In this document: in pieces, positions 30,721-36,769 of the stretch | Layout: each line of letters begins with the position of its first letter | Numbering within the stretch: the first letter of the stretch is position 1 | DNA from: Eledone cirrhosa | Lineage: Eukaryota | Direction of reading: 5' to 3' | Length of the DNA: 64,000 bases | Assembly (NCBI GenBank): GCA_964016885.1 | Contig: OZ024746.1 | Span: 68,200,001 to 68,264,000 of the forward strand | Made by a program: the position numbers and the translations under genes | The notes under the pieces: model-generated | What the model saw: only the letters and a program-made list of their open reading frames with translations | What the model was told of the DNA's origin: nothing | The model's database searches: none

Positions 30721-31201
30721 TTATATATATATATATATTATATATATATATATATTATATATATATATATATATTATATATATATATATATTATATATAT
30801 ATATATATATATATATATATATATATTATATATAAATATATATATATATATATATATATTATATATAAATATATATATATATATATATATATATATCATC
30901 ATCATCATCATCACCGTTTTACGTCAGTTCTTCCACGCTAGCATGGGTTAGACGGGTTGTCCTGTTGTGGGCAGTGTCTGGTCGGCTGACCATGCCTTGC
31001 TCATACAGGAACTGATCTGGCTTGATTTCTACAGCTGGATGCCCTTCCTAACACCAACCTCATTTACAGTGAGTGCTGGGTGCTTTTTCGTGGCGCCTAC
31101 ACGTCCACTTTACAGTGTGGGCTGGGTGCTTTTTTGCCGTGGCACCTCCACGACCACCTTGCGGTGGGGGGGGGGGGGGGGGGGCATATTGTTTATATGC
31201 T

Positions 31202-34200
31202 TCAGCATGTACCCATGGGAGGTCGGGTACCCTGTATTACTGCGTGACGCCAGAAGTCACGGTCGTGTGTCATTGACTTTGAGAGGTGTAGTTGGGTAAG
31301 GTCGGCTTTTATCACCTCATCCCAAGTCATCTTGGGTCTCCCCACTCCGCGGTTTCCATCAACTTCTAGTGCTCTGCACCTTTTTATGCAGCTGTCATCC
31401 TTCATACGCATCACATGTCCATACCAGCGTAACCGCCTCTCCTGCACGCAGCATTTGATTCCTCTTATGCTCAGTCTCTCTCTCAATTCATTTATGCTTT
31501 GTCGTTCACGTATATTACTGTTACACATCCATCGGAGCATGCAGGCTTCGTTTCTCTCTAATCTACGTAAGTCTTCCACCTTCAGCGCCCAGGTCTCACT
31601 ACCATGCAACATCGCTGTTCGGATACACGCATCATACAGTCTGCCTTTCATTCTGAGGGAGAAGCCTTTTGCAGCTAGCAGTGGTAGTAGTTCCCTAAAC
31701 TTCTTCCATCCCGTTCTTACCCTAGTTATTGTACTTTCTGAGCACCCACCTCCGTTGCTAATTCGGTCACCTAGGTAGCAGAAGCTGTCTACTGTTTCTA
31801 CAGGGCCCTCCCAGAGATTGGTGGTACTTGTTTCCTGTGGCTGTTTGCTTGCTGTTTCAGCACAGCTGCTGCATGTGAATCCTACATTCTTAATTAAGCT
31901 TCCTGAGATCCCGCTACATCTCTTGTGTACCCATTGTTTGCATTTGGGGCAAAGAATGGAGTTCCTACCTACACACTGAGCAAGGCCATTTCCCTGAGGG
32001 GATCTGGGTTCTGTTTTCTCGTCTACTTATAAGGACCTTAGTCTTTGTCATGTTGACTTTGAGGCCCTTTCTCTCTAGTCCCTGCTTCCAGGTTTGGAAT
32101 TTATTCTCTAGTTCTACCATAGATTCAGCTATGAGTGCGAGGTCATCAGCATACAGGAGTTCCCATGGGCATCCGGTCTTAAACTCCTCCGTTATTGCCT
32201 GCAGGACTATGATGAACAGGAGAGGGCTAAGAACAGAGCCCTGGTGGACCCCAACCTGTACGCTAAATTCCTCGCTATACTCATTGCCAATCCTAACTTT
32301 GCTGACTGCTCCCCTATACATGGCTTGTACCGCTTTCACAAGCCATTCATCTACTCCTAGTTTTCTAAGAGCCCACCAGATTACTGCACGTGGAACTCTG
32401 TCAAAGGCTTTCTCAAGGTCGACAAATGCCAAGTAGAGTGGCTTACTTTTAGCTAGGTACTTTTCCTGTAATTGCCTCACAAGGAAGAGGGCATCAGTGG
32501 TGCCTTTCCCTGGTACAAACCCAAATTGCATCTCGTCTATATTCACCCGGTCCCTAATCAGCTGTGCTATAACTCTTTCTGTTACTTTCATGACCTGGTC
32601 CATCAACTTTATACCTCTATAGTTTCCTCTATCTAGTGCATCGCCTTTACCTTTGTAGCAGTTGACAATGATGCTACTGCACCAATCTTTTGGTATGGCC
32701 CCCTCTAGTATTACCTGGTTAACGATACGTGTGGTTATAGTGTGACCTACAGACCCAGATGCCTTCAGCATCTCGGCAGCTATACCCGATGGACCGGTTG
32801 CCTTCCCTATCTTCATATCTCTGATTGCCTTACTTACTACGCTGCCGCTGACTTGTACTGCTGGTCCCTCTATAGGGACTACGTGGGGTAGGGTCTCTTC
32901 TTCCCATGCATTCTCCTCATTTAGTAATCTATCATAATGACTCTTCCATGCATCTTTCTTCTCAGCACTTGTGAGGGCAAGCTCACCTTTATCATTCCGG
33001 ATACACTTCTCTCCAATGACATCACAACTATCTCTGACACACTGCCTCGCAATCTTGAATACCTCCTGTTTCTGGTCCTCACGTTGTAAAACATGCTTGA
33101 ATTTTCTATCCTCTGCTTCCCTCCTAGCTAAGTATACTTGTCGCCTAGCTTCCCTCTTGGTCTCTATGTAATGTACCCTGCTCCCCCCGTTCTTCCATTC
33201 TTTCCATGCCTGTCTCTTGGCCTTGACTGCTTCATCTACCTTATTGTTCCACCACCAAGTCACTCTCCTCCTGCTTGAGGTCTTACTCCAGCCACAAACC
33301 TCATCCGTCGCCTCTAGTAAGTTATTTTTTAGGAACTCCCAGTTCTCTTCTACGTTAAATGTCTTTATCTGTTCTTCTTTACTGTCGTAGGCGTTGAGTA
33401 AAATATCTTTAAATCTGTTACTGGTTGAGGGGACTTTCAGCTTCCAGATCTTTCTTCTCCAGGTTGGCCTCTGTTTCAGGGCTCGTCTAGTTCTGACCGT
33501 GAGGTCGCTGACAACTAAGCTATGTTGGGATGTACATTCCTCACTAGGGAAGGCTTTTGTGTTTACGACCGTCTATCTGTCACGTCCTCTGATGAGGATA
33601 AAATCTAACTGACTAGAGTGCTCCCCTGATCTATAGGTGATCAGGTGGTTGTCGGGTTTTTTAAAGTTTGTGTTACATATCGACATGTCATTGGCGTCGC
33701 AGAATTCTAGAAGTCTGAATCCTTCCTCATTCCTTGTGCCAACTCCATGGCCTCCATGTACTCTATTGAAGCCGTCGCAGTGTTTACCTACATGTCCGTT
33801 AAAATCTCCTGCAATGATTAGGAAGTCCTTGTCGTCTGTTAGAGCAGTAGTGTGTATTAGGGACTCGTAAAACCTATCCTTAAGTTCGTCTGGCAGCCCC
33901 GATTGGGGTGCGTAAGCTGATATTATTGTGGTAATTGTCTTATTCAGGACTAGTCTGAGTTTAATGATTCTTGCATTTACCCTGTACACTGAGATTACTT
34001 TATCTACCCACTTGTCAGCTAATAGTATACCTACACCACCCATCCCATCGTCATTTCCCACCCAGAAAAATTTGTAGCACTGGCTTTTTCCTACAAGGAC
34101 TCTAGCAGACCCTCCTCTCCATCTAGTCTCTTGCACACAGCATACATCAACTTCCTTTCGCTCTAGCATTTCTACGATTTCTCCTGCTCTTCCTTTCATT

Positions 34201-34310
34201 GAGCCTACATTGATGGTACCAACTCGGAGTTTTGGGCATTTGTCGACACTCGTAGGGGAGGGTCTCTGGGTTGGCGCTTCACGTGGGTGCTTGGTAGCTC
34301 GCAGATTCAT
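31202..34310 (-). pseudogene. RTE-A ORF copy 2; TAG at 33573-33575 and an 11-bp deletion near 31970
   Basis: 3109 nt versus 3120 nt in copy 1; the deletion lies between short 'tgtagg' direct repeats. Confidence 0.95.
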
Positions 34311-34548
34311 ATTTCATCTATTGATTCAGAGTTGCTCGTGTATTCCCAGCTCATCCATCCATAACGGTGGGAAAATTGAGGGCTAGAAGGACAGTGGTGG
34401 TGGGGTAATGGCAGGGTGTGTTGGGATGCGCCAGAGGAGGAGAGAGTTAGTTAGGCAGGTAGTAGCAGCAGCAGCAGTGGAAATGGCATGCTAGGTTTGA
34501 TTGGTCGAATAGACTATGGTGGTGTGTGGGGGGGGGGTGAAATTGTGA

Positions 34549-36769
34549 GGTAGGAACTGAGGGTCGCATGGTAAATATCCAAGTTAATAAGTTAATACTA
34601 CATCAGTAAAATTAACAATAATAACGTCATGAAAAAAACTACTAAGAGAAACCCTCGAAAATTTATCGCTAATACAGCAGGGAAAATTTAACGCTAATAC
34701 AGCAGGGAACATCATAATATTAACGACAATATGTAGGCTAAAATACCTTCGTAGATTAGATGGATGGCTGGCTGGGAAAATTGGAATCACCAGCTCTAGT
34801 GATACATTTTAGCAGAGAAGAATGGGAAAGTGTCTTATCTCTTCAATATTTTCAGATTGAATGAATTAGGTTAAAGACAGGGTAGTAAGCCTTAAAGAAG
34901 TGCATAGAGAGGGGGGGGGTAGGAACTGAGGGTCGCATGGTAAATAACTGAGAGAGATACAATAGGATTAGAATACCGCATGGTAAATATCCAAGTTAAT
35001 AAGTTAATACTACATCAGTAAAATTAACAATAATAACGTCATGAAAAAAACTACTAAGAGAAACCCTCGAAAATTTATCGCTAATACAGCAGGGAAAATT
35101 TAACGCTAATACAGCAGGGAACATCATAATATTAACGACAATATGTAGGCTAAAATACCTTCGTAGATTAGATGGATGGCTGGCTGGGAAAATTGGAATC
35201 AGCAGCTCTAGTGATACATTTTAGCAGAGAAGAATGGGAAAGTGTCTTATCTCTTCAATATTTTCAGATTGAATGAATTAGGTTAAAGACAGGGTAGTAA
35301 GCCTTAAAGAAGTGCATAGAGAGGGGGGGGGTAGGAACTGAGGGTCGCATGGTAAATAACTGAGAGAGATACAATAGGATTAGAATACCGCATGGTAAAT
35401 ATCCAAGTTAATAAGTTAATACTACATCAGTAAAATTAACAATAATAACGTCATGAAAAAAACTACTAAGAGAAACCCTCGAAAATTTATCGCTAATACA
35501 GCAGGGAAAATTTAACGCTAATACAGCAGGGAACATCATAATATTAACGACAATATGTAGGCTAAAATACCTTCGTAGATTAGATGGATGGCTGGCTGGG
35601 AAAATTGGAATCACCAGCTCTAGTGATACATTTTAGCAGAGAAGAATGGGAAAGTGTCTTATCTCTTCAATATTTTCAGATTGAATGAATTAGGTTAAAG
35701 ACAGGGTAGTAAGCCTTAAAGAAGTGCATAGAGAGGGGGGGGTAGGAACTGAGGGTCGCATGGTAAATAACTGAGAGAGATACAATAGGATTAGAATACC
35801 GCATGGTAAATATCCAAGTTAATAAGTTAATACTACATCAGTAAAATTAACAATAATAACGTCATGAAAAAAACTACTAAGAGAAACCCTCGAAAATTTA
35901 TCGCTAATACAGCAGGGAAAATTTAACGCTAATACAGCAGGGAACATCATAATATTAACGACAATATGTAGGCTAAAATACCTTCGTAGATTAGATGGAT
36001 GGCTGGCTGGGAAAATTGGAATCAGCAGCTCTAGTGATACATTTTAGCAGAGAAGAATGGGAAAGTGTCTTATCTCTTCAATATTTTCAGATTGAATGAA
36101 TTAGGTTAAAGACAGGGTAGTAAGCCTTAAAGAAGTGCATAGAGAGGGGGGGGTAGGAACTGAGGGTCGCATGGTAAATAACTGAGAGAGATACAATAGG
36201 ATTAGAATACCGCATGGTAAATATCCAAGTTAATAAGTTAATACTACATCAGTAAAATTAACAATAATAACGTCATGAAAAAAACTACTAAGAGAAACCC
36301 TCGAAAATTTATCGCTAATACAGCAGGGAAAATTTAACGCTAATACAGCAGGGAACATCATAATATTAACGACAATATGTAGGCTAAAATACCTTCGTAG
36401 ATTAGATGGATGGCTGGCTGGGAAAATTGGAATCAGCAGCTCTAGTGATACATTTTAGCAGAGAAGAATGGGAAAGTGTCTTATCTCTTCAATATTTTCA
36501 GATTGAATGAATTAGGTTAAAGACAGGGTAGTAAGCCTTAAAGAAGTGCATAGAGAGGGGGGGGTAGGAACTGAGGGTCGCATGGTAAATAACTGAGAGA
36601 GATACAATAGGATTAGAATACCGCATGGTAAATATCCAAGTTAATAAGTTAATACTACATCAGTAAAATTAACAATAATAACGTCATGAAAAAAACTACT
36701 AAGAGAAACCCTCGAAAATTTATCGCTAATACAGCAGGGAAAATTTAACGCTAATACAGCAGGGAACAT
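34549..36769 (-). repeat. Tandem array of ~411-bp monomers (one 369-bp unit, four 411-412-bp units, one ~205-bp partial)
   Basis: 'aggaactgagggtcgc' recurs at 34552, 34921, 35333, 35744, 36155 and 36566. Confidence 0.98.

What the first reader, a model, noticed from the sequence alone, without database searches (positions are those of the whole stretch)
30895..36769. RTE retrotransposon whose 5' leader appears to be a tandem array of 411-bp monomers
Seen: ~240 nt upstream of the minus-strand RT ORF start (34310) begins an array of ~5.5 nearly identical units. 'aggaactgag' recurs at 34552, 34921, 35333, 35744, 36155 and 36566. By eye the units differ only in G-run length and one C/G site (gaatcaCcagc in units 1 and 3, gaatcaGcagc in 2, 4 and 5). 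The ORF-proximal unit lacks ~43 bp between two CGCATGGTAAATA repeats, and the distal unit is cut mid-monomer at (TA)n. Every other insertion in this nest is bounded by microsatellite, but there is none and no TSD between the RTE 5' UTR and the array, so array plus LINE read as one 5.9-kb insertion. Copy 1 stops at the position equivalent to 34489, consistent with ordinary 5' truncation. In the RTE sense each monomer has two TCAGTT initiator-like motifs, a TGACG site and a duplicated TTCCCTGCTGTATTAGCG-w-TAAATTTT. Established: rodent L1s use tandem ~200-bp promoter monomers with a truncated outermost unit; RTE elements typically have short 5' UTRs. Inference: this is an RTE lineage with a self-regenerating multimeric promoter, or an RT-linked repeated non-coding RNA. 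I do not know of this being described for RTE.
Basis: partly seen in the sequence, partly recalled or inferred. Interest (0 to 1): 0.88.

Follow-up and report, generated by a model that had tools for sequence, protein, structure and literature searches.

The report
Stacked promoters on octopus RTE LINE
Hundreds of copies of a young jumping gene, in what is likely an octopus genome, begin with a stack of repeated 411-base units that each carry a textbook transcription-start signal, so the stack likely works as a supply of spare promoters that shrinks when the element jumps and likely regrows in place (once to 63,000 bases), a layout known from mouse LINE-1 that my searches did not find described for this family.

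Summary
Confirmed. The 411-bp array is the normal 5' end of a young RTE-type LINE family. All 55 other arrays examined abut the RTE body, and 30 of 30 RTE 5' ends carry monomer. There are 430 exact array-body junctions genome-wide, and raw reads hold the unit-to-unit joint.

Each unit has one Inr-DPE core promoter match (+1, +17T, +19G, +24G, +28-32), kept in 237 of 245 units. Element 5' ends pile up there: 9 vs 1.5 expected, and 12 vs 0/4/4 new loci in a genome-wide check. A 40-end set did not replicate this, and most ends are scattered. No RNA data.

Arrays are homogenised within a locus and travel with the body. Lengths run from under one unit to 168 units (63 kb) on an intact element, pointing to regrowth in place. 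A sister family (74% aa) carries an unrelated 552-bp 5' array.

It works like mouse L1 monomer promoters but is not L1. The scan noted this layout before in other octopus DNA (e1-9547972, e1-9500732, e1-8673048). My literature searches found no RTE case; Repbase/Dfam were not searchable. New variant of a known kind.

The parts
30895..30912 (-). (GAT)6 3' tail of the RTE, abutting (TA)n
   Evidence: sequence; tails of 3-9 repeats in 52 copies
30913..31201 (-). 3' UTR
   Evidence: sequence and ORF end
31202..34310 (-). Single ORF (APE endonuclease, RT, PHD-like finger); 1039 aa in intact copies; this copy is broken by a stop at 33573-33575 and an 11-bp deletion near 31974
34311..34552 (-). About 240-bp single-copy tether between array and ORF
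34553..34921 (-). ORF-proximal short unit (369 bp, 43-bp deletion between direct repeats); Inr +1 at 34862, DPE at 34831-34835
34922..35333 (-). Full unit 2; Inr +1 at 35274, DPE at 35243-35247
35334..35744 (-). Full unit 3; Inr +1 at 35686, DPE at 35655-35659
35745..36155 (-). Full unit 4 (reference monomer); Inr +1 at 36097 (monomer position 59), DPE at 36066-36070
36156..36566 (-). Full unit 5; Inr +1 at 36508, DPE at 36477-36481
36567..36769 (-). Truncated outermost unit (monomer positions 209-411; no Inr-DPE core)
30722..30894 (.). (TA)n target, 3' side of the element
36770..36797 (.). (TA)n target, 5' side of the element
21832..25428 (+). Second copy of the same family, 5'-truncated inside the tether
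36797..38731 (+). 5'-truncated copy of sister family D (95% to a full-length D copy), the family that carries the unrelated 552-bp 5' array elsewhere

Best explanation
The array is the normal 5' end of a young single-ORF RTE-type LINE family, and each 411-bp unit likely acts as an internal TATA-less RNA polymerase II promoter (Inr plus DPE), so that the stack likely supplies spare promoters that are lost when the element jumps and likely regrows in place by DNA-level block duplication. SHOWN: array, tether, ORF and tail form one insertion unit at hundreds of loci; length is variable; the outermost unit is cut; the Inr-DPE match is present and kept in nearly every unit; 5' ends are over-represented from +1 to about +10; arrays are homogenised within a locus; one intact element carries 168 units. 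INFERRED: transcription starts at monomer position ~59 of some unit and reads through the downstream units and tether. Reverse transcription usually stops early (about 0.5-0.8 ends per kb over the first 3 kb) but inside the array, so about 78 of 100 copies that reach the array still keep a complete core promoter. Unequal exchange or replication slippage then re-expands short arrays from one or two units, which spreads new variants through all units.
For: Linkage: 37 of 37 score-selected arrays, 18 of 18 position-ordered arrays, 30 of 30 RTE 5' ends, 430 exact junctions with control 0. One insertion unit: L064 splits a family-D monomer whose flanks rejoin with a duplication of at most 4 bp; array sequence is inverted at the 5' end in L052, L235 and L236 as in TPRT twin priming. 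Promoter: the only Inr+DPE match on either strand is at +1 = 59; 41 of 5000 dinucleotide shuffles have one anywhere. +17T, +19G and +24G (PMC4180977, read after the match was found) also fit; the full motif occurs in 21 of 200,000 mononucleotide shuffles. It is kept in 237 of 245 units. 5'-end scan peak starts at 58-59, 9 vs 1.5, p=0.001, unchanged by a dinucleotide correction. Genome-wide check: 12 new loci in the test window vs 0, 4, 4 in controls, p=0.0009. Regrowth: monomer distance 0.34% within vs 2.1% between loci, body 0.35%; proximal unit closer to its own array in 39 of 40; Mantel rho 0.55, p=0.0005. Arrays of 10.5 kb (14-unit period) and 63.2 kb on an intact 1039-aa copy with the same compound (TA)n on both sides.
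Against: No RNA, CAGE or reporter data; the run search gave no usable RNA. Only 9 of 89 ends fall in 57-67 and 15 of 89 in 57-90; most are scattered. A score-selected set of 40 ends did not replicate the peak (2 vs 1.07, p=0.29). The genome-wide check counts only (TA)n-flanked ends and uses three controls, one of which totals 8 loci when discovery-set loci are included (test 15). The family D monomer has no Inr+DPE match, and its TATA/Inr candidate got 0 ends vs 1.9 expected. An RNA from the proximal Inr has 11 upstream ATGs, so translation is unexplained. TSDs are barely above control (mean 4.0 vs 3.2 nt in 20 non-microsatellite loci). Higher-order periods were significant in only 1 of 8 mid-length arrays tested. 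Inr-DPE usage in this animal was not tested.
Confidence: 0.7

Rival explanations
1. The units are promoters, but arrays regrow mainly during retrotransposition, when the reverse transcriptase jumps back to a homologous unit or second-strand priming is staggered.
For: Both models are proposed for mouse L1 (bioRxiv 2022.08.06.500894; PMC6454616). Short duplications and inversions at 5' junctions (L046+69, L235, L236) and microhomology-bounded sub-repeats (98, 43, 25 bp) show template slippage.
Against: A 63-kb array with nested higher-order periods cannot plausibly be reverse-transcribed at 0.25-0.8 ends per kb. Single-unit variants are copied in blocks of 6 and 14 units.
Confidence: 0.15
2. The array is a passive VNTR carried by the element. 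Transcription comes from one proximal promoter or from host read-through, and the 5'-end peak is a reverse-transcription pause site.
For: Most ends are scattered; the peak failed in one set; arrays are structurally unstable (98-bp sub-repeat in 46 of 100); no RNA evidence.
Against: Copies with many units require RNAs starting far out in the array. The peak begins exactly at a five-part core-promoter match kept in 237 of 245 units, with no (TA)n-flanked end in the control window shortly upstream, positions 29-41. A second family has independently got an unrelated terminal array.
Confidence: 0.1
3. Each unit is a structured RNA or self-cleaving ribozyme that cuts the 5' end out of read-through transcripts, as twister variants do for the RTE element Perere-3.
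For: Precedent in the RTE clade (PMC8501958 passages).
Against: No Rfam match at E<=1; fold z -0.56, local z 0.09 and 0.70; no hammerhead core and no hit to my rough HDV-like descriptor, which had no positive control. Ends are spread over ~10 nt rather than one base.
Confidence: 0.04
4. A free satellite lies next to this RTE by chance, or the array is an assembly artefact.
For: One array is satellite-sized (63 kb). Only exact or close matches were sampled, so diverged orphan arrays could be missed.
Against: 55 of 55 arrays are RTE-linked. The head-to-tail joint is in 354 raw reads from 29 start places and in contigs of two other runs.
Confidence: 0.01

Closest known systems
Mouse L1Md A/Tf/Gf monomer promoters and rat L1 (PMC5381506 passages; PMC6454616 passages and section 10; bioRxiv 2022.08.06.500894 passages)
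   Same: Terminal tandem monomers plus ~250-bp tether; variable number; truncated outer unit; truncation peak marking the start site; partial proximal unit; very long arrays (50 units in mouse); unrelated monomers in different families.
   Different: Single-ORF element with a (GAT)n tail, not L1. Monomer is 411 bp, 36% GC and CpG-poor, with Inr-DPE instead of YY1/CpG island. Arrays reach 168 units. The peak holds only 10-17% of ends.
Inr+DPE internal promoters of jockey, Doc, G, I, F, SART1 and TRAS1 (PMC4748587, PMC4180977 passages)
   Same: TATA-less Inr at +1 and DPE at +28 to +32, with T+17, G+19 and G+24.
   Different: In those elements the promoter is, from recall, single and terminal; here it is repeated in every unit. 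Activity here is not shown.
RTE-2_OV of Octopus vulgaris (PMC9115989 passages) and Perere-3 (PMC8501958 passages)
   Same: Single APE-RT ORF with a zinc finger, microsatellite 3' end, intact young copies.
   Different: RTE-2_OV is reported with a ~600-nt 5' UTR and the paper has no occurrence of 'tandem'; Perere-3 uses a 5' twister ribozyme. Identity with RTE-2_OV was not testable (sequence not held).
TRE5-A A-module of Dictyostelium (PMC3159450 passages)
   Same: A 200-bp 5' module with promoter activity.
   Different: Two-ORF, tRNA-gene-targeted element. Tandem A-modules are my recall and were not in the passages seen.

Membership tests
RTE clade LINE | Single ORF with APE endonuclease then RT, no ORF1 | tested here: met
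   Pfam Exo_endo_phos, RVT_1, PHD; 1039-aa ORF begins ~240 bp after the array; no monomer ORF over 74 codons
RTE clade LINE | 3' tail of short tandem repeats, no poly(A) | tested here: met
   (GAT)3-9 in 52 of 52 copies with both ends held
RTE clade LINE | RT phylogeny with curated RTE/BovB references | not testable with these tools
   Homologues at 44-55% identity carry no clade names; PDB hits are only L1 ORF2p, R2 and bacterial RTs. The label RTE rests on architecture and recall.
RTE clade LINE | TSD of 7-15 bp (PMC6007223 passage) | tested here: not met
   0-8 nt, mean 4.0 vs control 3.2 in 20 non-microsatellite loci; 4 bp at the clear empty site L064. The rest lie in (TA)n, where a TSD cannot be read.
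L1 clade | ORF1 plus ORF2, poly(A) tail | tested here: not met
   single ORF and (GAT)n tail
L1-type monomer promoter (works like) | Terminal tandem monomers plus tether, variable number, truncated outer unit | tested here: met
L1-type monomer promoter (works like) | 5' ends cluster at a start site inside the monomer | tested here: inconclusive
   Significant in 89 position-ordered ends and in the genome-wide check; not in a 40-end set or in family D
L1-type monomer promoter (works like) | Promoter activity, additive with unit number | not testable with these tools
   no RNA run usable; needs reporters
Inr+DPE core promoter | Inr at +1, DPE at +28 to +32, T+17, G+19, G+24 | tested here: met
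   consensus strings TCAKTY and RGWYV are recalled, positions from PMC4748587 and PMC4180977
Ribozyme-bearing retroelement or repeat | Hammerhead, twister or HDV-like fold at the 5' end | tested here: not met
   (own descriptor was rough and had no positive control)
Free satellite DNA | Arrays unlinked to a mobile element | tested here: not met
   0 of 55 arrays unlinked

The most novel reading that the evidence does not exclude
Octopod RTE LINEs have independently evolved the mouse-L1 strategy with different parts: exchangeable stacks of core promoters (an Inr-DPE multimer in family A, an unrelated 552-bp unit in family D) that erode at each jump, regrow and homogenise in place, and can run away into satellite-sized arrays on still-intact elements. 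Hundreds of copies only ~0.1% diverged would make the unresolved question of how monomer arrays are renewed directly testable.
Probability: 0.55. Interest if true: 0.78.

Novelty: new variant of a known kind. Interest (0 to 1): 0.62.

Why it matters
Long terminal monomer promoters are described as a special feature of mouse L1, and the way they are renewed is stated to be unclear (PMC6454616). A second system in another LINE clade and animal group, with two unrelated monomers and hundreds of very young copies, shows convergence and offers a natural experiment on erosion versus regrowth. It also gives a direct route from an intact LINE to satellite DNA. Short-read or transcript-based consensus sequences would collapse such 5' ends, which matters for work on active RTEs in octopus brain.

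Tried and rejected
TSD test across 20 non-microsatellite loci: only marginally above control.
Rfam, folding and ribozyme motif checks: negative.
Monomer similarity to the element body (pseudo-LTR idea) or to the D 5' region: none beyond chance.
Family D start-site candidate (TATA ~479, Inr ~511): 0 vs 1.9 ends in 27 position-ordered ends; the cluster at 456-472 is confounded by an internal (CA)n(TA)n, and three ends scored at position 1 run on into a variant unit.
Higher-order periods that I first read by eye: only L063+68 passed a permutation test, 1 of 8.
broke off early on variant units and one search's unit count had an offset bug; both were redone.
Protein searches gave no clade names.
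Sequence look-up in earlier scan findings: nothing.
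Full report
OBSERVATION. The array is as described: period 411, 5.4 copies, 99%; marker positions, the C/G pattern and the 43-bp shorter proximal unit all check out. On the minus strand the order is: truncated unit, four full units, short unit, ~240-bp tether, ORF 34310-31202, 3' UTR, (GAT)6, with (TA)n on both sides. The ORF has APE, RT and PHD-like domains. This copy is dead, with a stop at 33573-5 and an 11-bp deletion near 31974. The genome is 3.0 Gb. 'Octopus' is my inference from the repeat landscape and earlier scan notes; no call of mine names the organism.

THE ARRAY BELONGS TO THE ELEMENT. A DNA search scored 38 of 389 candidates. I fetched the 37 non-window loci seen in the listed rows. 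All 37 abut a ~99%-identical RTE body: 35 collinear, one with a deletion over the junction (L032), one with the outer array inverted (L052). That set is score-selected, so I also took the first 100 of 4259 exact 22-mer hits (control 0). These form 18 loci, and 18 of 18 are directly 5' of the body, one of them internally deleted. In reverse, 30 of the 40 best-scoring RTE 5' ends were examined (one is the window): 29 have a monomer hit and the last has ~37 nt of monomer. The array-tether junction occurs 430 times exactly. A 3'-end 21-mer occurs 14,980 times, possibly including related families, so full-length copies are a few percent. 38 of 52 copies with both ends held have an ORF of at least 1030 aa (four loci left out because an end was missing, inverted or compound). 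Median private divergence is 0.10%.

ONE INSERTION UNIT, NOT AN ARTEFACT. TSDs are short and weak (mean 4.0 vs 3.2 nt control, 20 loci). At L064, however, array plus body split a monomer of another family whose two flanks rejoin with a duplication of at most 4 bp. Inverted array segments at the 5' end of L052, L235 and L236 indicate that the array was in the RNA template (inference from TPRT twin priming). Raw Illumina reads of run X22 show the head-to-tail joint in 354 reads from 29 start places; contigs of X1 and X2 show it too.

LENGTHS. For the first 100 junctions in genome order the array median is 0.93 kb; 85 are at least 370 bp, 25 at least 2 kb, 8 at least 4 kb, and 46 carry a 98-bp internal sub-repeat in variable number. 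The five arrays that ran past 6 kb measure 6.6, 7.0, 7.5, 10.5 and 63.2 kb. The last has 168 units, sits on an intact 1039-aa copy, and has the same compound (TA)n on both sides (G000:C1, from 422727333).

PROMOTER EVIDENCE. 5'-end profiles mark the start site in mouse monomers (PMC6454616 passages). I used 94 of the 100 loci (dropped: one N gap, two inversions, two duplicate flanks, one mis-chained), giving 89 uncensored ends. Against exposure, the best 10-nt window starts at monomer position 58-59: 9 vs 1.5, scan p=0.001; p=0.002 after correcting for AT/TA microhomology; both subfamilies contribute (4 and 5). A second excess lies at 369-390 (10 vs ~3), around one TCAGTT. Position 59 is the +1 of the only Inr+DPE match on either strand (41 of 5000 shuffles; consensus strings recalled, spacing from PMC4748587 passages). 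PMC4180977 (passages), read afterwards, adds T+17, G+19 and G+24; all fit, and the full motif appears in 21 of 200,000 shuffles. 237 of 245 units keep it, and 22 of 100 arrays lack a complete core. A genome-wide count of (TA)n-flanked ends, windows chosen before the search, gave 15 loci at 56-68, and 0, 4 and 8 at 29-41, 89-101 and 150-162. Outside the discovery set that is 12 vs 0, 4, 4 (p=0.0009). Against this: a score-selected set of 40 ends showed 2 vs 1.07; most ends are scattered; no RNA could be laid; and 11 upstream ATGs precede the ORF even from the proximal unit.

HOW IT IS RENEWED. In 46 full elements the bodies differ by 0.35%, while monomer segments differ by 2.1% between loci and 0.34% within; the proximal unit is closer to its own array in 39 of 40, and array type tracks body type (Mantel rho 0.55, p=0.0005). 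Arrays are therefore rebuilt repeatedly from one or two units (inference). Block periods of 6 (L063+68, 0 of 2000 permutations; only 1 of 8 arrays tested passed), 14 (L200) and 12/24/49 (63-kb array) show multi-unit duplication. With 0.25-0.8 ends per kb, 63 kb cannot plausibly be reverse-transcribed, so DNA-level growth in place is strongly inferred for long arrays. RT-step duplication may add to it; both are proposed for mouse.

SISTER FAMILIES. Family D (74% aa; the fragment at 36797-38731 is 95% identical to it) has a 552-bp monomer with no similarity to A's. 14 of 14 arrays lie 5' of its ORF, there are 286 junctions, and 30 of 30 position-ordered junctions have monomer upstream and ORF downstream. 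It has no Inr+DPE match and no supported start site. Family B has internal 89-bp and 114-bp repeats behind a shared head (23 of 30 with the 89-bp unit, 13 of 30 with the head), a different layout.

COMPARISON AND NOVELTY. It works like mouse and rat L1 monomers plus tether (PMC5381506 passages) but is not L1. RTE membership rests on architecture; the RT tree was not testable and the TSD is shorter than the 7-15 bp reported (PMC6007223 passages). Searches listed no paper whose title or abstract start describes a 5' monomer array in an RTE. Passages of PMC9115989, PMC13282606 and PMC10294476 did not either. Supplements were not read and Repbase/Dfam could not be searched, so a prior database entry is possible. 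Earlier scan notes report the same layout in other octopus genomes and a 43-kb case in this genome, plus CR1 cases in sharks and a lizard; these are unchecked AI notes, not support.

VERDICT. Observation confirmed, interpretation supported. Array as the element's 5' end ~0.97; Inr-DPE promoter per unit ~0.75; whole erode-and-regrow model 0.7. New variant of a known kind; interest 0.62.

Noticed in passing
L064:1777-2552 and L151-L165, L271-L300; window 36797-38731: Sister RTE family D carries an unrelated 552-bp 5' monomer array (up to ~10 units seen) with an internal (CA)n(TA)n.
   Followed up: yes
window 42519-45760 (-); L121-L150: RTE family B 5' UTR holds 89-bp tandem units resembling the RTE 3' UTR motif, a 114-bp duplication at the ORF start, and a shared upstream head that may be SINE-like.
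   Followed up: partly
G000:C1:422727333-422790568 (L212, L253-L267): 63-kb, 168-unit array with nested higher-order periods on an intact element: a satellite growing from a LINE leader.
   Followed up: partly
L080, L084, L108, L111, L117, L118: A subfamily (46 of 100) with a 98-bp sub-repeat inside the monomer, up to about 19 in a row, bounded by near-identical 13-bp sequences.
   Followed up: partly
L045/L053, L186/L187, L209/L210: Pairs of loci share the same 5' junction; L045 and L053 differ at the 3' flank. Segmental duplication, haplotig or recombination.
   Followed up: no
L111: The element sits in the central (TA)n of a palindrome; the flanks are reverse complements of each other.
   Followed up: no
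window 21800-39300: Nest of RTE copies of three families separated by long (TA)n; many insertions genome-wide have the same compound microsatellite on both sides.
   Followed up: partly
run X6: A run of another coded organism holds the ORF start and part of the monomer with the 98-bp joint but has no depth over the tether; low-coverage contigs, so absence is not shown.
   Followed up: no
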